64,000 nucleotides of DNA from a virus (taxonomy: Duplodnaviria > Caudoviricetes): IMG/VR virus record IMGVR_UViG_3300021387_000104, positions 3,409 through 67,408 of that record. The stretch is one strand, 5' to 3'. Positions 7,318 to 18,013 of this stretch are shown here, in pieces (within the stretch, counting starts at the first letter, position 1; each line of letters opens with the position of its first letter). Both the position numbers and the translations under genes were made by a program. The notes beneath the pieces were generated by a model. It had not been told where the DNA came from, searched no databases, and saw nothing but the letters and a program-made list of their open reading frames with translations.

Positions 7318-8745
7318 TTACCAAGTGTATTCTGAAATGGTCTTTTCAAGCGTTCCTTCACCTTGCTCTGCCAGACGGATGAAATCAAACACCTTTTCAG
7401 ACCATCCTGCTATGATGTTTGTCTTTGGTCCGTGGAACTGCTGTGTACCATAGCCTTGCAGGTCGATAGCGTGTACCCAGATGTCGTTGCCAGACTTCCT
7501 GCGGTATTGGTCTGCAAGCGATTGTACAGGGGAACTCCATCCACAATTGCACTGATTGTCTGAAATAATGATGATTCGGTCAGCATCTACGCGGTCAGCC
7601 AGCATTTTTTCAAACGGAAGACCCATTGCTGTGCCACCACTGGCGCGCGCTTCATGGACGGTCGTGTGCAGTATGCCGTTTCTGGAAGATATTGGTTGCT
7701 TACTGATGCTGTTGTTGAATGTATAGAAAATGCTGTTATCGCACATCTTGTTCGCGATCAGTCCGAGTAACATACCGATTTCACAGCACTGAATATCAGA
7801 TTTGCTGCTTATAAGACCACTCATCGAACCTGATACATCAACGGCGATTACGGTAGTGCCAGACAGACGCGGCATGTTTTCAATAGATGCTTCTACGGCG
7901 CTTTCAAGAGCGTCATACACGCGGCTGCCGGCGGAGGCAGGGAGATTCTTATAAGCGGAGAGAAAGCGGAACGGAAGCTGCTTGGACTTGTGTACGGCAA
8001 CGGGATCTTCAATGCGGTTAAGCACTTTTTCAATGTTGTCTGGCTTTGCTTCAATGATGTTTCTCAGGTTTCTGAGTAGCGCCATATATCCGACCTTGCC
8101 GCTATTGATAAGTCCCTCCCATGTCTTCTTGTTGTTGCCGTTCTTTGAAAGTTCAGTTTCCCATGTCAGCGGGGTTTCAAGCGTTCCTTCAAGACAACGC
8201 TTCCACATTGCTTCCTGTTCTGCGTCCTTCGGCTTCGGCCTGCACAGGCACAGCAAATCGCGCATTTTTACGCCTTTGCCATCACCCTTATACTTGGCAA
8301 GGGTATATTCATCGAACGTCTTAAGCACGTCGCAAATGCCGTTTCTGACAGAGTTGGGAATGGGCTTGCCGAACGTGTTCAAATAAAAAGACATAATTTC
8401 CGTCACGTCATCGCCGCGCAACGATACGCCACGGATGGTCTCACGCGCGTGTGGCTTGCCTTCAGGCTCATGCGCAAGAAAACCGGTCAGCACGTGCGCA
8501 ACAGAACGCATGTTGAACTCCCTGCGGGCGAACACGGCCAACTTGGAAACAAACTGTGGGTCGGTTTTGATAACGCGCTGGATGGTTTCTGTCATTTCCT
8601 TGCTGTTATCACCGTAGAACTTGCTTTCGTTGAAAAAGCTCGTAAGGACTTGCGTAATAAGCTTTTCCTTGTCATTCATACGGTAAGCGACGTGACCTTC
8701 CTTGTTGGTCGTCTTGATAGTAGCGGTGTTGTTGAACTTTGCCAT
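7318..8745 (-). CDS. rsr: Ro60/TROVE RNA-binding protein with C-terminal vWA domain
   Basis: TROVE motifs (SFFNESKFYG, ARREFNMRS, TWETELS, GYMALLRNLRNI, QLPFRFLSAY), vWA MIDAS DVSGSM and IIIISDNQ; AAAAGGAGGT RBS. Confidence 0.93.
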   Translation of the reverse strand: MAKFNNTATIKTTNKEGHVAYRMNDKEKLITQVLTSFFNESKFYGDNSKEMTETIQRVIKTDPQFVSKLAVFARREFNMRSVAHVLTGFLAHEPEGKPHARETIRGVSLRGDDVTEIMSFYLNTFGKPIPNSVRNGICDVLKTFDEYTLAKYKGDGKGVKMRDLLCLCRPKPKDAEQEAMWKRCLEGTLETPLTWETELSKNGNNKKTWEGLINSGKVGYMALLRNLRNIIEAKPDNIEKVLNRIEDPVAVHKSKQLPFRFLSAYKNLPASAGSRVYDALESAVEASIENMPRLSGTTVIAVDVSGSMSGLISSKSDIQCCEIGMLLGLIANKMCDNSIFYTFNNSISKQPISSRNGILHTTVHEARASGGTAMGLPFEKMLADRVDADRIIIISDNQCNCGWSSPVQSLADQYRRKSGNDIWVHAIDLQGYGTQQFHGPKTNIIAGWSEKVFDFIRLAEQGEGTLEKTISEYTW

Positions 8746-8780
8746 GCAGTACCTCCTTTTACGGTGGACAAAATAAAAAA

Positions 8781-8860
8781 CAAACGCGATAAATCCGCAA
8801 CCGGGTAAGCCAGTGTCGAATTACAAGTTCGATGCATCCGATTACTGCAATGCGCGTTTG
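8781..8860 (-). ncRNA. Array unit E: short stem-closed RNA with the shared CAUUGC/UUUAU motif, no T arm
   Basis: Minus strand: CAAACGCG-CATTGC-A...TTTAT-CGCGTTTG; internal hairpin TCGAA-CTTGTAA-TTCGA. Confidence 0.6.
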
Positions 8861-8870
8861 TCTTTGGTGT

Positions 8871-9018
8871 GAAGCGGATAAAAACGGAAACGGTACGTTT
8901 AGCGCTCTGCCGATTGAGCTACTACGATTACTCATAAAGAGCCACACTCGTAGACGGGGCTCGAACCCGCAACCTCTCGCTTAACAGGCGAAGTAACCTT
9001 TTCCTACAATGCCGCTTC
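8871..9018 (-). ncRNA. Array unit A: circularly permuted tRNA-Asn(GTT)-like RNA (Y RNA/YrlA-like candidate)
   Basis: Minus strand: GAAGCGG-CATTGT...GGTTAC-TTCGC CTGTTAA GCGAG-AGGTT-GCGGG TTCGAGC CCCGT-CTACGA-linker-TCGTAG-TA-GCTC AATCGGCA GAGC...TTTAT-CCGCTTC. Confidence 0.8.
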
Positions 9019-9026
9019 AGTGGCGT

Positions 9027-9163
9027 GATGCTGATAAATTCGATAACAGTACATTTACGGTGTGCTACCATTACACCATCCCACACATATGGGCGTGGGA
9101 GCAGGAATCGAACCTACACTACCGGCACCATAGCGAAGTAACTGTCATCTGCAATGCAGCATC
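9027..9163 (-). ncRNA. Array unit B: circularly permuted tRNA-like RNA
   Basis: Minus strand: GATGCTG-CATTGC...GTTACTTCG...GTAGG TTCGATT CCTGC-TCCCAC-loop-GTGGGA-TG-GTGT AATGGTA GCAC...TTTAT-CAGCATC. Confidence 0.8.
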
Positions 9164-9170
9164 ATTGGCA

Positions 9171-9281
9171 CGGTGCGGATAAAACTTGATTCTGTAAATG
9201 CCAACCATGGCTAAAGACGGAATCGAACCGGCAGTTCGTAAATATGCACACGAAGTAACAGAATCATGCAATGCCACACCG
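9171..9281 (-). ncRNA. Array unit C: reduced unit with T arm only
   Basis: Minus strand: CGGTGTGG-CATTGC-A-TGATTCTG-TTACTTCG...CCGG TTCGATT CCG...CAGAATCA...TTTAT-CCGCACCG. Confidence 0.72.
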
Positions 9282-9283
9282 AA

Positions 9284-9330
9284 CTCTCCCGACAGGGTTT
9301 GAACCTGTGACATTCTGCTTAACAGTCAGG
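9284..9330 (-). pseudogene. 3' half of tRNA-Asn(GTT); left inversion junction
   Basis: Minus strand: CCTGA CTGTTAA GCAGA ATGTC ACAGG TTCAAAC CCTGT CGGGAGA G; no D arm upstream in this orientation. Confidence 0.8.
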
Positions 9331-9470
9331 TGAAAAACCTGAATTTTACAGCGTTTTCAAGCACTATGTTATAAACATGTTATAAACCGGAATACAGTTT
9401 TATCAACACAAATAGTCTTATTACACTGGCTTTGATGACATATTATTGACACAATTGATATATGAACGGG

Positions 9471-9499
9471 TTGCAAAACAAACAAAAGCAGTGTATTAT
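9471..9499 (+). promoter_or_regulatory. Sigma-A promoter inside the putative invertible segment
   Basis: TTGCAA-17 nt-TATTAT with TG before the -10; followed by hairpin CGTGTTCA-CT-TGAACACG. Confidence 0.7.
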
Positions 9500-9521
9500 A
9501 TATGCGTGTTCACTTGAACAC

Positions 9522-9657
9522 GAACGGCATTGCAGGTAACGGTTACTTCAAGCCAGATTTGTGTCAATGGTTCGATTCCATTCCCAGTCCTACGGGCTGG
9601 CGTAGCTCAGATGGTAGAGCAAAATCACGAAAACACCGTTGCCAAATTTATCCGTTT
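9522..9657 (+). ncRNA. Array unit D: circularly permuted tRNA-like RNA (plus strand in this orientation)
   Basis: GAACGG-CATTGC-A-GGTAACGGT-TACTTC...AATGG TTCGATT CCATT-CCCAGTCC TACG GGCTGG-CG-TA-GCTC AGATGGTA GAGC...ACCGTTGCC-AAATTTAT-CCGTTT. Confidence 0.8.
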
Positions 9658-9663
9658 GTCTTA

Positions 9664-9754
9664 TGCGTGGGTTCATGACACGGCCCGTCTGATCAACGGA
9701 GCACGCCATGACAATGAGGCTAACATTGTGAAGGGTAGCCACCTTCCCCACGCA
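9664..9754 (+). ncRNA. Four-way-junction RNA candidate with complementary loops
   Basis: Closing stem TGCGTGGG/CCCACGCA and three internal arms; loop segments GGCTA (9718-9722) and TAGCC (9736-9740) are complementary. Confidence 0.55.
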
Positions 9755-9760
9755 GGTTAT

Positions 9761-9836
9761 TCTCCTGTAGCTCAGTCGGTAGAGCGTCTGCCTGTTAATC
9801 AGGGTGTCCCGGGTTCGAGTCCCTGATGGCGCACCA
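9761..9836 (+). pseudogene. Chimeric 76-nt tRNA: Asn(GTT) 5' half joined to an unrelated 3' half; right inversion junction and att core
   Basis: Canonical D arm, T loop and CCA, but the acceptor TCTCCTG/ATGGCGC pairs at only 3 of 7 positions and the anticodon stem TCTGC/TCAGG is imperfect. Confidence 0.8.
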
Positions 9837-9840
9837 CATG

Positions 9841-9884
9841 AAAGCCCCGAAAGTTTCGAGAGATTCAGAACTTTCGGGGTTTTT
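9841..9884. terminator. Hairpin terminator downstream of the att core and integrase
   Basis: AAA-GCCCCGAAAGTT...AACTTTCGGGGT-TTTT. Confidence 0.75.
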
Positions 9885-9996
9885 CCTGTTATAAACGGGT
9901 TCTTCAATAATTCTCTGAAATTCCCTCTGGTTTATAACACGGTTTATAACATTAGATTACGGGTTTTTTGGCGAAATCTACGACACTATTCTGACA

Positions 9997-11736: not shown

Positions 11737-11852
11737 ATTATAATGTAGGAATCCCAATAATGCAATACTAAATCAAAAATTTTTGAAATTTTATCCCAAA
11801 AAGGGGTTGACAAGTTATTTCGCTTGTGTTAAGATTATCCCAGTTCCGGGAC
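11737..11852. promoter_or_regulatory. Divergent cI/cro promoters with three operator-like palindromes
   Basis: Rightward TTGACA(11807)-17-TAAGAT; leftward TTGCAT-17-TATAAT (11765 to 11737). ATCCCA-N4-TGGGAT variants at 11751, 11793 and 11837; a perfect copy at 12081. Confidence 0.8.
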
Positions 11853-11871: not shown

Positions 11872-12090
11872 GTGATTAACACAAATCTGTTAAAAGCCAA
11901 GATCGTCGCAAACGGCTTTACACAAGAACAGATTGCACAGAAAATGGGAATGTCAAAGAATACGTTTTCCTCAAAAATCAACAACAAATCGCCGTTTAAT
12001 ATTGCGGAAGTATTCCAACTTTGTGAACTTCTTCATATTGAAAACGCTGAAGAAAAATGTGCTATTTTTTTAGCCGGGGCATCCCAATAA
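11872..12090 (+). CDS. cro: Cro-like XRE regulator
   Basis: Short HTH protein divergent from cI. Confidence 0.82.
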   Translation: MINTNLLKAKIVANGFTQEQIAQKMGMSKNTFSSKINNKSPFNIAEVFQLCELLHIENAEEKCAIFLAGASQ

Positions 12091-12292
12091 TGGGATAATG
12101 GAGCAAAGGAGGTGAAGGCTATGAAGCACGGCAACGGTCCGCCTGAGAAAAGAAAAAGCCCTGCACAGCGGCAACTGTGAAGGGCGGTCAGCCGGAGGGC
12201 TGATGTAATAACTACTGGTTAAGTGTAACAGAAAAAAGTGAAAATGTCAAATCTGAAATGAAAAATGAAAAATGAAAAGGAGTAAATGAGTT

Positions 12293-12991
12293 ATGGCTAA
12301 GAAGACTGAAGAAAAGGCTGTCATCAAGATCAACCCCATCAAGCTGCAGAAGGCGCGCATCACTATCGTGGGCGACACGCCGCTGATCGTGCATTCCTGG
12401 TCGGAAAAGGCGAAAAAAGAGATGCTGGCGGTTCAGCAGAAAGTTGCAAAAGCCAAGAAGGCCAAGGACATTCGCGATCCGTTTGCTGAGTTCATGGATG
12501 CTGCTTACTGGATTACCCCTGAACCGGAAGAGAAGACCCCAGAAGCGTTTGAAAAAGCCGTGGCAGACGGTGCGAAGTTCGGCTTCAAGGTCATTCCGTT
12601 TAAGCTTGCGGCTATCAGCGCCTGCTACCGTGCCGGCATCACCAAGAACAAAGTGGATCTGATGTGCTCATTCTTTGTGAACGCTGTGGACGGTGTGTGT
12701 CACGCGACCGGTGAAGAACTGGCAGTCATCCGCTCCGACAGGCCTCCCATTCTGCGCGAGGACATGGTGAGGATCGGCGGCATCAGCAAGACTGCCGACC
12801 TGCGTTATCGTCCTTCCTTCGTCAACTGGAAGACTGACCTTGAGGTTACCCTGATCGACACCGGTGTGTTCGATATGCGCAGCATCATCGAGGCGATCAA
12901 CTTGGGCGGCTTCATGAACGGTGTCGGCGAGTGGCGAATGGAAAAGTGCGGTGATTTCGGGCGATTCCATGTGGAACTTGCGGAGGAGTAA
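12293..12991 (+). CDS. RAMP/Cas7-like RRM-fold protein (candidate guide-RNA-binding effector, Vipr-like)
   Basis: N-terminal strand ITIVGDTPLIVH and C-terminal glycine-rich loop GGFMNGVGEWRMEKCGDFGRFHV; lies upstream of the pentamer array. Motif-level recognition only. Confidence 0.7.
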   Translation: MAKKTEEKAVIKINPIKLQKARITIVGDTPLIVHSWSEKAKKEMLAVQQKVAKAKKAKDIRDPFAEFMDAAYWITPEPEEKTPEAFEKAVADGAKFGFKVIPFKLAAISACYRAGITKNKVDLMCSFFVNAVDGVCHATGEELAVIRSDRPPILREDMVRIGGISKTADLRYRPSFVNWKTDLEVTLIDTGVFDMRSIIEAINLGGFMNGVGEWRMEKCGDFGRFHVELAEE

Positions 12992-12992
12992 G

Positions 12993-13460
12993 ATGGCGGC
13001 TTTCAGTTACGCATACCATGTCCCTGGCTTGCAGAAGAACCCGGTCGAGGTTGTCGGCAAGGTACTGAACGAGTTGGCTAACAGCAACGGCGGACTAACC
13101 CCAAAGACGCTGCTGGATGCCAGCCGCGACGTGAATGCACCGCTCCACAACGAATTTGAATGGAATGACGGCATCGCCGCTGAGAAGTACCGAGAGTACC
13201 AAGCAAGGCAGATCATCCTGAATGTGTACGTCAAGTACTCTACCGACGAGCAGGAACGCGAACAGCAGGAACGGGCGTATGTCCCTGTTCCTGGCGGTAA
13301 AAGCGCCTATGTATCGCTGAAAGCCGCCCTGACCAATGATGAGTGGAAAGCCCATCTGATGGAAGAGGCCAAGCGCGACATGAAAGCCTTTGCCGCGAAG
13401 TACCGCAGACTGATTGAACTGCAAGACCTGATCCATGAAATGGAAGCGTTGTTCACATGA
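12993..13460 (+). CDS. Conserved partner protein of the RAMP-like gene
   Basis: GGAGGAG RBS; LTPKTLLDASRD...PLHNEFEWND..AAEKYR..QARQII motif; sits between the RAMP-like gene and the array. Confidence 0.75.
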   Translation: MAAFSYAYHVPGLQKNPVEVVGKVLNELANSNGGLTPKTLLDASRDVNAPLHNEFEWNDGIAAEKYREYQARQIILNVYVKYSTDEQEREQQERAYVPVPGGKSAYVSLKAALTNDEWKAHLMEEAKRDMKAFAAKYRRLIELQDLIHEMEALFT

Positions 13461-13575
13461 GAGCAACGGAAATGAAGGTGCCTGAACCGTACCAGAGAGG
13501 ACGGCACCGAAGTAGCACGGACGAAAAGCCTGTGTGAGGTAGCCTGAGATGGTGAGACATGGTACGACAAGATTA

Positions 13576-14370
13576 GGCAGTATTGGCAAGTTTAGACCTG
13601 TCGCGTTAAGGCAAGGCGCGGAATGGCAGTATCGGAAAGGCAGGTCGTGGTGAGGCGAGGCAATGCACGGATTGGCAGTCTAGGAGAGGCTTGGTGTGTC
13701 AGGGCGCGGATAGGCGTGTTCAGGCTTGGCAGTCAAGGTTCGTCACGGTCGTGTTGGGTTCGTAATGGCATGGAACGGAACGGCAGTTAAGGCAAGGAGC
13801 GGTTAGTTCAGGCGAGCCACGGCATGTAAAGGTCAGTTTAGGCAGTCCTGGATAGGCGAGCCGAGGCGTGGCCCGGAGAGGTACGGCCTGGGATGGCAGT
13901 CAGGGCTTGTTGTGGACGGGCACGTATCGGCCTGGCTTGGAGCGGCAGTCGCGGATAGGCAGTGTTCGGTTAGTCGCGGTTGGGACTGGCAGTATCGGAA
14001 TGTCAGGTAATGGCTTGTTCAGGCAGATTTTGGTTTGGCTATGTCTGGTATGGACAGGCAGTCAGGGCAAGGCCGGTTTAGGCGTCGATGGGATCGCATC
14101 GGACGGGCAGTCAAGGTAAGGCGAGTCGCGGAATGGCTTGCACAGGCTCGGAAGGGCAGTCTTGGAGAGGATGGGCTAGGCTCGGACCTGTTCGTCAAGG
14201 CATGGCAGTCATGGATGGGTTTGGCAAGGCTCGTACAGGCGCGGAATGGCAGTCATGGATGGGCCCGGAAGCGTTCGTTTGGTTGCGGCAGGGGGTGGCA
14301 AGCTCTGGCATGGCAGTCATGGAGAGGCGTGTCAAGCTGAGACGTGGACTGGCTGTGCGCGCAACGGCAG
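13576..14370 (+). repeat. Array of 15 units: GGCAG-TNNN head plus 7-12 GGN-NN pentamers (candidate guide-RNA array)
   Basis: GGCAGT heads at 13576, 13625, 13674, 13728, 13782, 13841, 13895, 13944, 13988, 14057, 14106, 14155, 14204, 14248 and 14312; closing GGCAG at 14366. All spacings (44-69 nt) equal 5n+4. Confidence 0.92.
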
Positions 14371-14400
14371 GAATGAAAACATCGAAAGGGGTGAGGAAGC

Positions 14401-14640
14401 ATGACATTCAGCGAAATTGAGAGTTCTGAAAAAGACTTTCTCACTCCTTCCGATGTAGCGCCAATTATGGGTTGTATGCCGTACAGCCTGAACGTGCAAG
14501 CCAAGGAGGATATCACGAAACTTGGGTTCCCTGCGTCGCTGGTCGGCACAAGGTTACTGATCCCACGCCTTGGCTTCATCCGGTGGGTGAAATACGGGAA
14601 CGCTCCGTTAGGAGAAAGGGAGGAAGAATATGGACGCTGA
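14401..14640 (+). CDS. Excisionase-like winged-helix protein
   Basis: FLTPSDVAPIMGC...LVGTRLLIPRLGFIRW. Confidence 0.65.
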   Translation: MTFSEIESSEKDFLTPSDVAPIMGCMPYSLNVQAKEDITKLGFPASLVGTRLLIPRLGFIRWVKYGNAPLGEREEEYGR

Positions 14641-14824
14641 GACGATGAAACTGTTGCAGGATGCGGAGATGGCGCTGAAGACCGTGAAGGACGACGGCGT
14701 GATGATAGGTATCGGGCTGTTCGTGGTCATCGGGCTGACGATCTGGTATCTGTCTTATCTGCTGGACCGGTGGTCGTGGATCCCGCGCAAGCGGCACAAC
14801 CGCGTATTCAACGAACGGTTCTGA
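14630..14824 (+). CDS. Small membrane protein
   Basis: One TM helix; GGAGG RBS. Confidence 0.55.
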   Translation: MDAETMKLLQDAEMALKTVKDDGVMIGIGLFVVIGLTIWYLSYLLDRWSWIPRKRHNRVFNERF

Positions 14825-16213: not shown

Positions 16214-16633
16214 ATGGCTGACAGGGAGAAGGTCATCAGGGCCGTTGAAACTTGTTTTGATAGCTGGATTGATAAGCACCGGAACATGGGTCTTGATTTG
16301 CATGAAGTCGATCGGTTGAAACGAGAAGCGCTGGAATTGCTGAAAGAACAGGAGCCAAAGGTACTGACACGGGAAGAGCTAAAACAGTTTGATGAACGTC
16401 CTTGCTGGTTTGAATCTCACGGGACGTATATGGGTCAAAAAGGCTTTTGGATCATACCATATATGTTTACTTGTTATGAAACTATGTACTACGTGTATCC
16501 ACTTATGCAAATAAACGATCGTGGAGACTGTCATTTTTCTGAATTGGGATTGAGTGCATATAACAAAGCGTGGCGCTGCTGGTCCGCTCGACCGACAGAT
16601 GAACAGCGAAAGGCGGTGAAGTGGGATGACTGA
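16214..16633 (+). CDS. REK/KEQEP family protein 1
   Basis: DREKVI...ALELLKEQEP...AVKW. Confidence 0.65.
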   Translation: MADREKVIRAVETCFDSWIDKHRNMGLDLHEVDRLKREALELLKEQEPKVLTREELKQFDERPCWFESHGTYMGQKGFWIIPYMFTCYETMYYVYPLMQINDRGDCHFSELGLSAYNKAWRCWSARPTDEQRKAVKWDD

Positions 16634-16886
16634 CAGGGAGAAGGCCATAAGCAATTTTGAGCATGAAGTGAACAAGACCCACGACAGAGGGTGGGGCATT
16701 GTCGATTTGCGCATAGAAGACGCCAAGGAAATACTTGCGTTGCTGAAAGAGCAGGAACCCGCTCGTATTCAAAAACGCGAATTTGCACATATGTGGTTCT
16801 GGTGCTGTGGGTCTTGTGGCGTAGCAATAACAGAAGGGGATAGGTTTTGCAGGATGTGCGGAAGGGCGGTGAAGTGGGATGAATAA
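16626..16886 (+). CDS. REK/KEQEP family zinc-ribbon protein 2
   Basis: LLKEQEP...CGSCG...FCRMCGRAVKW. Confidence 0.7.
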   Translation: MTDREKAISNFEHEVNKTHDRGWGIVDLRIEDAKEILALLKEQEPARIQKREFAHMWFWCCGSCGVAITEGDRFCRMCGRAVKWDE

Positions 16887-17073
16887 AAAACGCAAGTATT
16901 ATCGAAGGTGTGGAATTTGCGGAAAAAGGTATGAACAGAAAGAGATGAAGAGAACACCATATAGCAAAAACGGATGGCTTTGTAAAGAGTGCTATGAAGA
17001 TGAAACAGATGCGTTTTTGATGTTTGATAATAATACAGGAGACCCTATTGGCTATGATTTAGATGAATGGTGA
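16879..17073 (+). CDS. Small CxxC zinc-binding protein
   Basis: CGICG...CKEC. Confidence 0.55.
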   Translation: MNKKRKYYRRCGICGKRYEQKEMKRTPYSKNGWLCKECYEDETDAFLMFDNNTGDPIGYDLDEW

Positions 17074-17310
17074 ATGGAAAGCAGGCAAAGTAGGATGATG
17101 ATAAAGAAGCGGCCAACGGCAAGGATTGAATGGAGCAACGGTAACGACGGTTGGGATGGGCGTTATTACATAGCGTATTACTGCCCAGAGTGCGGTCGAA
17201 GAATACAACACTATGCCAAAGACAACGCCTGTGAGCGGTGCGGAACCTTTTACGACTGGGGAGAGCGTGAACCCACCATTGAAATAACGAGGAGCGTCAA
17301 ATGGGAATGA
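17074..17310 (+). CDS. Small zinc-ribbon protein
   Basis: YCPECG...CERCG. Confidence 0.55.
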   Translation: MESRQSRMMIKKRPTARIEWSNGNDGWDGRYYIAYYCPECGRRIQHYAKDNACERCGTFYDWGEREPTIEITRSVKWE

Positions 17311-17702
17311 AAAAGACAATTTGCCTGTTGGTACTGGTTGTGTTTATGGCGGTCATACTCACAGGGTGTATGGAGCAGGAAGCAGATAAGGTCACAAGAA
17401 ATCTCAGCTTACAGGCCGACAATTTCAATGTGACTCGCCGGGTGACGGTGTATAACTGCCGTACCGACAAGATACTGCTTGAAGTGGTCGGGAACCTGAG
17501 TGTGCAAAAGTCTGGCGGTGACGTTGACCTGATCATTGAAGTCGCTCCGGGGCAGTACAAAAAGCACTTCGTTCGCCTGAACGACTGGACGATGTACGTT
17601 GTCGAGGACGTTTCCGGTGCTTTTGCGGATAAATACCATTACACAATCAATTTCCTCCCGGATTCGATCATGCCTATCAGGTTTACAAACAACATTGATT
17701 AA
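17301..17702 (+). CDS. Phage lipoprotein
   Basis: Signal peptide with LTGC lipobox. Confidence 0.75.
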   Translation: MGMKKTICLLVLVVFMAVILTGCMEQEADKVTRNLSLQADNFNVTRRVTVYNCRTDKILLEVVGNLSVQKSGGDVDLIIEVAPGQYKKHFVRLNDWTMYVVEDVSGAFADKYHYTINFLPDSIMPIRFTNNID

Positions 17703-17716
17703 GGCGGTGAAATGGG

Positions 17717-18013
17717 ATGACTGATCGAGAGAAAGCTATCAAGGGGCTGACACATTGTACCGCGTGGAGTGGCTTACATGAATGTCAGCCGAAGGTTGGG
17801 GACGATTGCCCATATGAAGACGAGGCTGACTGTCAGTTGTCTCTTATGCGTGATGCCCTTGTCCTGCTGAAAGAGCAGGAGCCCGTGAAACCGATCACCG
17901 ACCAGGGCGCTGTGTTCAGGACGTATGCTTGCGGCAATTGCAAGACGCACTTTTACCTGCGCCAGCAAAAATACTGCGCCATATGCGGAAGGGCGGTGAA
18001 ATGGAATGAATGA
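17717..18013 (+). CDS. REK/KEQEP family zinc-ribbon protein 3
   Basis: DREKAIKGL.HC...LLKEQEPV...CGNC...YCAICGRAVKW. Confidence 0.7.
   Translation: MTDREKAIKGLTHCTAWSGLHECQPKVGDDCPYEDEADCQLSLMRDALVLLKEQEPVKPITDQGAVFRTYACGNCKTHFYLRQQKYCAICGRAVKWNE

What the first reader, a model, noticed from the sequence alone, without database searches (positions are those of the whole stretch)
12293..14370. RAMP-like gene, partner gene and 5-nt-periodic array: candidate RNA-guided system with a gapped code
Seen: 13576-14370 divides into 15 units, each starting GGCAG-TNNN and followed by 7-12 pentamers. For example, unit 3 is ggcag|tcta|ggaga|ggctt|ggtgt|gtcag|ggcgc|ggata|ggcgt|gttca|ggctt. All 15 spacings (49,49,54,54,59,54,49,44,69,49,49,49,44,64,54) are 4 mod 5. 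By hand count, 122 of 131 pentamers start with G and 89 with GG, while the last two bases vary freely. No two units are identical, and a 5-nt period is incompatible with coding. The upstream 232-aa protein has an RRM-like first strand and a C-terminal G-rich loop (GVGEWR..K.G.FGRF). Established: such loops mark RAMP/Cas7 proteins, which polymerise along guide RNA with fixed periodicity. Inference: each protomer binds a GGN scaffold and displays NN, so each unit spells a discontinuous target and unit length sets filament length. There is no Cas1/2, Cas3 or nuclease, so it may act by binding and repression, for example against competing phages. I recall a recent report of this architecture named VIPR; if that is right this is a new member rather than a new class, which I could not verify.
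Basis: partly seen in the sequence, partly recalled or inferred. Interest (0 to 1): 0.93.

Follow-up and report, generated by a model that had tools for sequence, protein, structure and literature searches.

The report
Phage VIPR system with staggered guide array
This is a real member of the recently described VIPR family, in which a small phage protein coats a guide RNA made of 5-letter repeats to silence rival phages. Several of its 15 guides match replication and lysogeny-switch genes of other phages, so it is a clear new example rather than a new class.

Summary
There are 15 units, and every spacing is 4 mod 5. Of 131 inner pentamers, 122 start with G and 89 with GG.

The 232-aa protein is a Vipr. 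The only solved structure its sequence matches is the SUSP1 Vipr protein (profile E 3.6e-13; hhalign probability 98.4%). Its AlphaFold model (pLDDT 93) matches only CRISPR Cas7-type RAMPs.

The array fits the "staggered, 1-nt-overlapping" vrRNA architecture that the paper describes only bioinformatically. Each guide reads GTCNN-(G K H N N)n-GGCAG and shares one G with the next guide. It has no 3' tail and no ribozyme.

Under the published 1-nt-skip rule, four guides have targets above chance in other phages:
- the HExxH codons of ImmA/IrrE peptidase genes (24/24);
- a DUF2800 exonuclease (20/20);
- a family-A DNA polymerase (18/20);
- a Cro/C1-type regulator (25/26).

All four put the skipped base on the codon wobble position. 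None matches the phage's own contig.

A further 33 guides from 29 related loci hit the same rival replication module. Skip-0 and skip-2 controls give almost nothing.

Verdict: a new member of a known kind. Expression, processing and binding are untested.

The parts
12293..12991 (+). vipr gene: a 232-aa Vipr (minimal RAMP). It has an RRM core, a helical insertion (about residues 38-91), a thumb beta-hairpin (about 153-176, with the invariant YRP arginine R173) and a G-loop (209-224, GVGEWR...GDFGRF).
   Evidence: The only hit among solved-structure sequences is SUSP1 Vipr 36pp_D: E 0.0038 with the single sequence, E 3.6e-13 with profile A1, and hhalign probability 98.4% against the SUSP1 gene product. 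AlphaFold2 gives pLDDT 93.4. Foldseek top hits are Csm3 and type VII Cas7 at E about 5e-5. In VIA-align the top 40 or so are all CRISPR RAMPs, Z up to 10.3. It matches PHROG 4652 and no Pfam family.
12993..13460 (+). vap-like accessory gene, 155 aa, translationally coupled to vipr (GGAGGAG 4 nt upstream of the ATG). The model shows a weakly winged-helix-like N-terminal part and a C-terminal helical hairpin.
   Evidence: tblastn finds a homologue beside vipr in 81 of 86 related loci. It matches PHROG 15946 and no Pfam family. AlphaFold2 gives pLDDT 92.2. Foldseek finds nothing significant. VIA-align gives only weak Z 4.2-5.3 hits, among them winged-helix proteins such as Z-alpha, MecI and ArsR-type regulators. 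There is no detectable similarity to SUSP1 vap1.
13461..13575 (+). Leader between vap and the array. It contains the motif GCCTGAGA(C/T)ATGG (here 13541-13563, partly duplicated), which recurs just before the first unit in related loci.
   Evidence: Leaders from 15 related loci share the motif. The fold is only modestly better than shuffles, z = -2.3. No sigma-70-like promoter was found here; the nearest one on the + strand is at 11807-11835, before the cro-like gene.
13576..14370 (+). Staggered vrRNA array of 15 guides. Each guide runs from the last G of one GGCAG to the last G of the next, so neighbours share one nucleotide. A guide is 9-14 pentamers: a first pentamer GT(C/A/T)NN, inner pentamers G-(G/T)-(A/C/T)-N-N, and a constant last pentamer GGCAG.
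   Evidence: Searches give the units and statistics. The array has no more RNA structure than shuffles, z = -0.6. Rfam finds no family and no ribozyme. Tandem Repeats Finder does not call it. Related loci carry the same GGCAG(T/C)C punctuation with 4-mod-5 spacing.
13732..13786 (+). Guide 4. Its predicted target is the DUF2800 / PD-(D/E)XK exonuclease gene of other phages, at the codons for VVMIEQRVDF. The guide is antisense to the coding strand and the skipped base falls on the wobble position.
   Evidence: There are 26 exact 20/20 matches in viral contigs, all in the same motif. Pfam gives DUF2800 at E 1e-158 and PHROG 69 'exonuclease'. The shuffled-guide null reaches at most 16/20.
13845..13899 (+). 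Guide 6. Its predicted target is the family-A DNA polymerase gene of the same phages, at the codons for LYEDVPDTL, in sense orientation and wobble phase.
   Evidence: It matches 18/20 in 12 of the loci fetched for guide 4 and in four of five whole target contigs, with 17/20 in the fifth. Pfam gives DNA_pol_A. The null maximum is 17/20, so this is the weakest of the four.
13992..14061 (+). Guide 9. Its predicted target is the first 13 codons (MRISYNKLWKMLI) of a 67-aa Cro/C1-type HTH gene in a phage that also carries the guide-4 target.
   Evidence: It matches 25/26 at L098:5842-5880, which is G001:22982-23019, and 21/26 in G004. Pfam gives HTH_26 at E 1e-19. The null maximum is 20/26.
14252..14316 (+). 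Guide 14. Its predicted target is the catalytic HExxH motif codons, (I/M)RFTLAHELGHI, of ImmA/IrrE (Peptidase_M78) genes. The guide is antisense and in wobble phase.
   Evidence: It matches 22/24 in the ImmA-like gene next to the integrase and repressor of the related phage L068. Exact 24/24 matches occur in 2 viral contigs and 6 genomes of different phyla, and all encode the motif. The null maximum is 19/24. The variant of this guide in L007 reads IRFAIAHELGHI.
13678..13732 (+). Guide 3, identical in the near-identical phage L007. Its only exact matches are in EcoEI-type type I restriction R-subunit genes (YDFVRAYVHF) from metagenomes. These are not above chance.
   Evidence: There are 9 exact 20/20 hits in metagenome contigs, all homologous, in sense orientation and wobble phase. 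Pfam gives ResIII + EcoEI_R_C + HSDR_N. By my estimate, about one chance event is expected in a collection of that size. No exact hit was found in viral contigs.

Best explanation
The stretch 12293-14370 is a VIPR (Viral Interference Programmable Repeat) system carried by a temperate phage from an animal-gut metagenome.

Layout. The system sits just downstream of the integrase / LexA-like repressor / cro-like switch and consists of vipr, a vap-like accessory gene and a 15-guide array. The array is probably transcribed as one RNA on the + strand, possibly as part of the early rightward operon (inferred).

Assembly. By homology with SUSP1 Vipr, one Vipr protomer binds each pentamer. The conserved thumb arginine (R173) and the G-loop E213-W214-R215 would hold G1 and G/T2. 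Position 3 is tucked away and unread. N4 and N5 are presented for base pairing.

Punctuation. Each guide ends with GGCAG, and the next guide starts on that pentamer's last G. The pentamer register therefore slips by one base at every junction. I infer that this slip stops a filament from running into the next unit and so defines separate ribonucleoprotein complexes of 9-14 protomers.

Targeting. The filament pairs its dinucleotides with double-stranded DNA and skips every third target base (published for SUSP1; supported here by natural targets). No nuclease gene is present, so the effect is most likely transcriptional silencing.

Predicted targets. They are genes of rival phages: the exonuclease and DNA polymerase of a replication module (DUF2800 exonuclease, Enc34-type ssDNA-binding protein, family-A polymerase, D5-like primase); a Cro/C1-type regulator in one of those phages; and the active-site codons of ImmA/IrrE anti-repressor peptidases. 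This phage uses a self-cleaving S24 repressor and has none of those genes, so it can silence rivals without harming itself.
For: Membership.
- The sequence matches the solved SUSP1 Vipr and nothing else.
- The model has a RAMP fold with thumb and G-loop.
- SUSP1 R138, D177, W178 and R179 align with R173, E213, W214 and R215. R173 and R215 are invariant across 79 diverse homologues.

Array.
- Its statistics are far beyond chance.
- The logo is G-K-H-N-N, with no information at positions 4 and 5.

Gene-array linkage.
- In 86 related loci (1.3 Mb), 61 have a same-strand period-5 array next to vipr, and only one such signal lies elsewhere.
- Of the other 25 loci, all but two carry repeated GGCAG next to vipr (counted), and the four I read in full are GGCAG(T/C)C-punctuated arrays.

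Code.
- Four guides match rival-phage genes well above shuffled-guide nulls, always with the skip on the wobble position.
- Skip-0 and skip-2 controls gave no hit at 85% or better in the same 318 kb.
- 33 guides from 29 related loci hit the same five rival contigs: 122 hits at 88% or better with skip 1, against 2 with skip 0 and 0 with skip 2.
- The hits concentrate on the DUF2800 / SSB / PolA module.

Self versus non-self.
- No guide matches the phage's own 67-kb contig better than the control rules do.
- No guide from related loci hits it either.
- It has no homologue of the targets.

Guide evolution.
- L007 encodes an identical Vipr. Between its array and this one, substitutions fall mostly on pentamer position 3 (16 of 28) and never on position 1.
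- The changed dinucleotides of guide 14 still spell a valid ImmA motif.

The mechanism itself is taken from 10.64898/2026.04.26.720920 and 10.64898/2026.04.26.720927.
Against: - Nothing was measured for this locus. There is no evidence of transcription, of RNA ends, or of Vipr binding.
- The staggered architecture has no small-RNA data in the paper either.
- Position 3 is A in 29% of pentamers, whereas SUSP1 Vipr sterically excludes purines there.
- The accessory protein has no detectable similarity to SUSP1 vap1 and no confident fold match, so its role is unknown.
- I could not assign one of the seven VIPR types from the text.
- Only 4 of 15 guides have targets above chance, and guide 6 is only one match above its null maximum.
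- The guide-4 and guide-14 hits in the pooled loci are there by construction, because those loci were fetched by exact match. Their support comes from the collection scans, and I estimated the collection sizes rather than being given them.
- That the rival phages infect the same host is not shown.
Confidence: 0.9

Rival explanations
1. The G-rich periodic stretch works at the DNA level, for example as iterons for an origin or as binding sites for the accessory protein, or it forms two-tetrad G-quadruplexes. On this reading it is not a guide array, and the protein is a RAMP-like RNA-binding protein with another job.
For: GG every five bases could in principle form G-quadruplexes. The array follows a protein with a weakly winged-helix-like model. 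No transcript has been shown.
Against: The variable dinucleotides match conserved codons of rival-phage genes only under the 1-base-gap rule, and do so across 29 related loci. A DNA-site model does not predict that. The periodicity is always on the gene strand (61 loci on the G strand, none on the C strand). The register slip and the unit lengths of 9-14 pentamers match published vrRNAs.
Confidence: 0.03
2. It is a VIPR-like system that ends in destruction of the target rather than silencing. The accessory protein, or a host factor, would supply nuclease activity, as proposed for VIPR types III-V.
For: The paper reports types with nuclease or helicase accessory genes. The accessory protein here has no assigned fold. 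Targets inside replication genes would suit either outcome.
Against: Neither gene matches a nuclease or helicase family. The accessory model looks, weakly, like a winged-helix protein plus a helical hairpin. The nuclease-bearing types are described as enriched in host defence islands, whereas this locus is in a phage early region.
Confidence: 0.07
3. The array is a decayed or orphan remnant, and the target matches are by-products of codon-like composition.
For: Eleven of 15 guides have no target above chance. The guide-3 hits are at chance level.
Against: The G1 position and the punctuation are kept intact in all 15 units. L007, whose Vipr is identical, keeps the scaffold while position 3 drifts. 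Matches of 24/24, 20/20 and 25/26 exceed shuffled-guide nulls by 4-5 positions. Most natural targets are probably not in the collections I could scan by exact match.
Confidence: 0.02

Closest known systems
SUSP1 and Pseudomonas fulva VIPR systems (type II), bioRxiv 10.64898/2026.04.26.720920, 10.64898/2026.04.26.720927 and 10.64898/2026.10.15.759431
   Same: Both have a homologous Vipr protein with the same thumb YRP and G-loop (D/E)WR motifs, a two-gene operon followed by guides made of 5-nt repeats with two free bases, a phage location, natural targets in rival mobile elements under the 1-base-skip rule in wobble phase, and no self-targets.
   Different: SUSP1 guides are GGTNN repeats, each with its own leader and a 3' hairpin/pseudoknot tail. 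Here 15 guides abut with a 1-nt overlap, with no tail and no separate leaders. Position 3 is A, C or T rather than a pyrimidine. The accessory protein is unrelated to vap1 by sequence. Only the C-terminal 68 residues align by profile.
'Staggered vrRNA arrays' of other VIPR types (fig. S18 of 10.64898/2026.04.26.720920)
   Same: [quoted passage not shown] That is exactly what spacings of 5k-1 imply here.
   Different: I could read only the legend, so I cannot say which type or clade the figure shows, or whether this clade is among the 667 representatives. The paper says small-RNA sequencing confirmed the ribozyme and single-guide architectures, and does not say so for the staggered one.
Cas7-family backbone subunits of class 1 CRISPR effectors (Csm3, Cmr4/Cmr6, type VII Cas7, Cas7-11)
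   Same: They are the best structural matches (Foldseek E about 5e-5, VIA-align Z up to 10.3). They share the principle of one protomer per fixed RNA step, with a thumb that interrupts the guide-target duplex.
   Different: The step is 5 nt rather than 6. Three guide bases and one target base are displaced per step instead of one of each. There is no repeat-spacer array, no Cas6, Cas5, large subunit, Cas1/2 or nuclease, and sequence identity is about 10%.

Membership tests
VIPR | Vipr protein: a minimal RAMP with an RRM core, a glycine-rich loop and a thumb | tested here: met
   AlphaFold2 gives pLDDT 93.4, with a beta-hairpin at 153-176 and a G-loop at 209-224. Foldseek and VIA-align return only CRISPR RAMPs at the top.
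VIPR | Sequence homology to an experimentally characterised Vipr | tested here: met
   SUSP1 Vipr (PDB 36pp_D) is the only significant solved-structure match: E 0.0038 with the single sequence and 3.6e-13 with the profile. hhalign gives probability 98.4%, E 9e-15, to the SUSP1 gene product, over the C-terminal 68 residues only.
VIPR | Residues that hold G1 and G2 of the repeat (SUSP1 H17, R138, D177, W178, R179) | tested here: met
   R138, D177, W178 and R179 align with R173, E213, W214 and R215. R173 and R215 are invariant in 79 homologues. The counterpart of H17 is probably H34, which is 90% or more conserved, but the N-terminus did not align, so that residue is inferred.
VIPR | vrRNA: tandem pentanucleotide repeats with a fixed GGY (or related) scaffold and two hypervariable bases, 9-16 repeats per guide | tested here: met
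   There are 15 guides of 9-14 pentamers. The logo is G (0.90), G/T (0.94), not-G (0.97), N, N. Position 3 is not restricted to pyrimidines, which falls under the paper's 'related consensus'.
VIPR | Minimal locus of vipr plus one accessory gene beside long non-coding guide regions, with no cas genes, mostly in (pro)viruses | tested here: met
   vipr-vap-array follows the integrase, the S24 repressor and the cro-like gene. The record is a virus record. The accessory gene is conserved in 81 of 86 loci.
VIPR | Targets follow the 1-base-skip rule, the skip falls on the wobble position, targets lie in rival mobile elements, and there are no self-targets | tested here: met
   Guides 4, 6, 9 and 14, the clade-wide convergence and the absence of self-targets. 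This is computational only.
VIPR | vrRNAs are expressed and co-purify with Vipr, and the complex binds dsDNA and represses transcription | not testable with these tools
   No RNA run on record holds the stretch. This needs small-RNA sequencing, pull-down and reporter assays.
VIPR type II (SUSP1 clade) | Each vrRNA carries a conserved 3' tail with a hairpin or pseudoknot, and the accessory gene is vap1 | tested here: not met
   Units end in a 5-nt GGCAG and abut the next unit. The array has no excess structure. The accessory profile has no similarity to SUSP1 vap1. The SUSP1 array read for comparison shows tails.
VIPR with ribozyme-interspersed arrays | Hammerhead ribozymes between guides | tested here: not met
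   No Rfam family matches at E 1 or better in 12000-14700. The junctions are only 9 nt of semi-constant sequence.
CRISPR-Cas | A repeat-spacer array with adaptation (Cas1/Cas2) and effector cas genes | tested here: not met
   There are no direct repeats longer than the 6-9-nt punctuation. No cas family was found in the two genes. The only RAMP is the Vipr homologue.

The most novel reading that the evidence does not exclude
In this clade the one-base register slip at every GGCAG|TC junction may itself be the punctuation. It would end one Vipr filament and seed the next, so a single transcript yields 15 separate silencing complexes with no tail, ribozyme or Cas6-like nuclease.

The guides may also be aimed at catalytic-motif codons, such as the HExxH of ImmA/IrrE. 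That would give family-wide silencing that is hard to escape, across hosts of several phyla.

A weaker extension is that guide 3 is aimed at a type I restriction R subunit, which would make VIPR an anti-defence tool as well.
Probability: 0.3. Interest if true: 0.6.

Novelty: new member of a known kind. Interest (0 to 1): 0.4.

Why it matters
VIPR was described only in 2026, and all its experiments are on type II systems of Proteobacteria phages. This locus is a compact, well-preserved example of the staggered-array form in a gut phage.

It comes with concrete target predictions: the ImmA active site, and the exonuclease and polymerase of a rival replication module. It also has dozens of related loci that converge on the same rival.

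That makes three things directly testable:
- how staggered arrays are punctuated;
- how far the third repeat position can vary;
- what a second, unrelated accessory protein does.

It also gives independent computational support for the 1-base-skip, wobble-phase code in a distant Vipr clade.

Tried and rejected
- **Exact scans with no hit.** Guides 3, 5, 6, 9 and 15 gave no exact hit in viral contigs. Guides 6 and 9 were then found with 1-2 mismatches in loci fetched for guide 4.
- **Guide 3.** It matched 9 homologous EcoEI-type HsdR genes in metagenome contigs. About one chance event is expected at that collection size, by my estimate, so I do not count it.
- **Guide 7.** A 16/18 hit in L087 and L092 is out of wobble phase and within the null range, so I rejected it.
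- **Sequencing runs.** No RNA holder is listed. The holders are animal-gut DNA metagenomes. Two runs labelled metatranscriptomic, which the tool flags as 'probably DNA', hold contigs about 90% alike covering vipr, vap and parts of the array. This says nothing about expression.
- **Host identification.** A single-protein scan of genome contigs found nothing. A sample of 401 genomes from one phylum had no Vipr match at E 1e-10. The host remains unknown.
- **The search for related loci with the diverse alignment A1** failed because no stretch was conserved enough. The closer alignment A2 worked.
- **Accessory protein.** Pfam, the solved-structure sequence search and Foldseek gave nothing significant.
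- **Tandem Repeats Finder** does not detect the array.
- **Position 3 as part of the code.** I tested whether pentamer position 3 pairs with the skipped target base. It matched in 25 of 88 cases, which is chance level.
- **VIPR type.** The type (I-VII) could not be read from the text or from the one held supplement.
Full report
**1. Observation**

The region is as described. GGCAGT recurs 15 times between 13576 and 14312, and the array closes with GGCAGG at 14366. The spacings are 49, 49, 54, 54, 59, 54, 49, 44, 69, 49, 49, 49, 44, 64, 54, all 4 mod 5. The chance of that is 3e-11.

The logo is G, G/T, not-G, N, N, with essentially no information at the last two positions. G autocorrelation peaks at every multiple of 5. 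Local period-5 power is about 30 standard deviations above shuffles, and no other part of the window shows it.

The array has no excess RNA structure, matches no Rfam family, and is not called by Tandem Repeats Finder.

**2. A better parse of the unit**

The four bases after GGCAG, read together with the last G of GGCAG, form a normal pentamer of the same G-(G/T)-H-N-N type: GTCAT, GTCAA, GTATC and so on. Each unit is therefore a whole number of pentamers, 9 to 14. It starts with GT(C/A/T)NN and ends with GGCAG, and it shares one G with the next unit (units re-derived).

That is exactly what spacings of 5k-1 mean. [quoted passage not shown]

GGCAG inside a unit without the slip behaves as an ordinary pentamer. 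In guide 14, the AG of an internal GGCAG pairs with a Leu codon of the target.

**3. The literature**

VIPR is real and recent. Three preprints matter here.

- bioRxiv 10.64898/2026.04.26.720920 reports a phage-borne minimal RAMP (Vipr), an accessory gene (vap), and vrRNAs of 9-16 GGY/NN pentamers. The NN bases pair with dsDNA while every third target base is skipped. The complex silences transcription, natural targets lie in rival phages and satellites, and the authors define seven types and several array architectures.
- 10.64898/2026.04.26.720927 gives the structures. There is one protomer per repeat. G1 is read by H17 and D177, and G2 by R138 and W178. Y3 sits in a pocket that excludes purines, and the skipped base sits in a pocket between the thumb and the helical bundle.
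- 10.64898/2026.10.15.759431 shows the biology in E. coli and describes the target-scanning method and nulls that I followed.

**4. The protein**

Pfam finds nothing. PHROG 4652 (function unknown) matches.

Against all solved-structure sequences, the only hit is 'SUSP1 Vipr protein' 36pp_D. The E-value is 0.0038 with the single sequence and 3.6e-13 with a profile of 79 diverse homologues.

I fetched phage SUSP1 (NC_028808.2) and located its locus by the gaps around two minus-strand genes. The 195-aa product aligns to my profile with probability 98.4%.

SUSP1 YR138P and GVGD177-W178-R179 align with YR173P and GVGE213-W214-R215. R173 and R215 are invariant in the family alignment.

The AlphaFold model is confident (pLDDT 93.4). 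Its matches are Csm3, Cmr4/6, type VII Cas7, Cas7-11 and other RAMPs, at Foldseek E about 5e-5 and VIA-align Z up to 10.3.

The family is large. It has 5,490 proteins at E 1e-3 or better in the 90% clusters and 2,412 representatives at 50% identity. Members occur in Gordonia, Mycobacterium and Pseudomonas phages.

**5. The partner gene**

The partner starts at 12993, 4 nt after a GGAGGAG. A homologue lies beside vipr in 81 of 86 loci.

Its model is confident (pLDDT 92) but has no significant structural match. Weak VIA-align hits (Z 4.2-5.3) include several winged-helix proteins, followed by a helical hairpin.

It has no detectable similarity to SUSP1 vap1. This fits the paper's statement that some vap genes encode DNA-binding proteins, but it does not prove it. 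Together with the missing RNA tail, it means this is not a type II system.

**6. Gene-array linkage**

I fetched 86 loci with Vipr homologues of 41-100% identity, 1.3 Mb in all.

A simple period-5 detector finds a G-strand array next to vipr in 61 of them. It finds only one such signal anywhere else, and none on the opposite strand.

Of the 25 loci the detector missed, all but two carry repeated GGCAG next to vipr (counted). The four I read in full are GGCAG(T/C)C-punctuated arrays richer in GT pentamers.

Two layouts occur. One is vipr-vap-array, as here and in the closer relatives. The other is vipr-array-vap, sometimes with a second array upstream.

A motif, GCCTGAGA(C/T)ATGG, recurs just before the first unit.

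**7. Targets**

I used the published rule: the guide is the NN of every pentamer except the final GGCAG, written NNxNNx and searched on both strands.

- **Self.** The phage's own 67-kb contig has no match better than the control rules give.
- **Guide 14.** It matched 22/24 in a Peptidase_M78 (ImmA/IrrE) gene that lies next to the integrase and HTH repressor of another Vipr-bearing phage, L068. The exact 24-base pattern occurs in two viral contigs and six genomes from different phyla. In all eight it encodes (I/M)RFTLAHELGHI, the HExxH active site, with every skipped base on a wobble position.
- **Guide 4.** It has 26 exact matches in viral contigs, all at VVMIEQRVDF of a DUF2800 / PD-(D/E)XK exonuclease.
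- **Guides 6 and 9.** Within the loci fetched for guide 4, guide 6 matches a family-A DNA polymerase at LYEDVPDTL (18/20 in 12 loci). Guide 9 matches the first 13 codons of a 67-aa Cro/C1-type regulator (25/26). Both are in wobble phase.
- **Nulls.** Skip-0 and skip-2 versions of all guides gave no hit at 85% or better in the same DNA. Shuffled-guide null maxima are 16/20, 17/20, 20/26 and 19/24 for guides 4, 6, 9 and 14. The guide-4 and guide-14 hits in this pooled DNA are there by construction, because those loci were fetched by exact match.
- **The phage lacks the targets.** It has no homologue of any target protein. It uses an S24 self-cleaving repressor rather than an ImmR/ImmA switch.

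**8. Clade-wide convergence**

I parsed 413 guides from the related loci and scanned five whole rival contigs plus three other target loci.

At 88% identity or better there are 122 hits under skip 1, coming from 33 guides in 29 loci. Skip 0 gives 2 hits and skip 2 gives none. None of these guides hits this phage.

The hits pile up on one replication module: DUF2800 exonuclease, Enc34-type ssDNA-binding protein, family-A polymerase and D5-like primase.

This is the same picture the paper reports for the P. fulva clade. It is strong independent support that the 1-base-skip code holds in this distant clade.

**9. Guide evolution**

L007 encodes an identical Vipr, and the region around it is 94% identical in DNA. 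Its array is a variant of this one: three units are identical, nine carry point changes, and the rest are replaced.

In the 12 matched units, substitutions by pentamer position are 0, 5, 16, 1 and 6. Position 1 is fixed, position 2 toggles between G and T, position 3 drifts freely, and the NN positions change less.

In guide 14 the NN changes convert IRFTLAHELGHI into IRFAIAHELGHI, with Arg read as CGN instead of AGR. That is still a plausible ImmA motif.

Position 3 does not track the skipped base (25 of 88).

**10. Mechanism**

The published, shown steps are these: one protomer per pentamer, a sequestered scaffold, NN pairing with a 1-base skip, and silencing without cleavage.

Shown here by computation: family membership, the array grammar, the gene-array linkage, natural targets consistent with the code, and the absence of self-targets.

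Inferred:
- The array is transcribed from the + strand, perhaps from the early promoter upstream of the cro-like gene. No promoter-like site lies in the leader.
- The register slip at each junction separates the filaments.
- Silencing ImmA would keep a rival prophage from inducing, and silencing the exonuclease and polymerase would block a rival's replication.

**11. Verdict**

This is a genuine VIPR system, a new member of a known and very recently described kind, in the staggered-array form.

It differs from the characterised type II systems in four ways: it has no 3' tail, its guides overlap by 1 nt, A is tolerated at position 3, and its accessory protein is unrelated.

It is not a new class, so I score interest as moderate. 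Its value lies in the concrete, testable target set and in the punctuation question.

Noticed in passing
window 16214-18013 (+): A run of small early genes encodes paralogous proteins that end in a shared (A/S)VKW(D/N)(E/D) motif, several after CxxC pairs. Examples are the ORFs at 16214-16633, 16626-16886, 17074-17310 and 17717-18013. They look like a family of zinc-ribbon-like small proteins of unknown role.
   Followed up: no
window 13541-13563, and the leaders of L001, L003-L005, L008-L012, L014, L020 and L023: The motif GCCTGAGA(C/T)ATGG lies immediately upstream of the first guide in many related loci. It could be a transcription start, a processing signal or a filament-nucleation signal.
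   Followed up: partly
L098:3544-7121 (IMGVR_UViG_3300029735_000021): In the rival phage, the Cro/C1-type gene predicted as the guide-9 target sits between an AAA_13 ATPase gene and a C5 cytosine methyltransferase gene. It may therefore be a controller of a methylase or abortive-infection-like module rather than a lysis-lysogeny switch.
   Followed up: partly
L068 (IMGVR_UViG_3300021255_002239) and L007 (IMGVR_UViG_3300021255_001880): The phage whose ImmA-like gene matches guide 14 at 22/24 carries its own vipr-array-vap locus (45% identical Vipr). By its contig name it comes from the same metagenome as L007, the near-identical relative of this window's phage. That hints that VIPR-bearing phages which target each other occur together.
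   Followed up: no
L019 and L023, the 3' ends of their arrays: In these relatives the last GGCAG is followed by a conserved terminator-like hairpin (CGCG..GGGGAGACGCGAT..AAATATCTCCCC). In this window the array instead runs straight into the ribosome-binding site and ATG of the next gene at 14401.
   Followed up: no
window 7318-9951: Other first-stage notes on this window describe a Ro60 (TROVE) gene with tRNA-like RNAs, and a tRNA-linked attachment site next to the integrase. I did not examine them.
   Followed up: no
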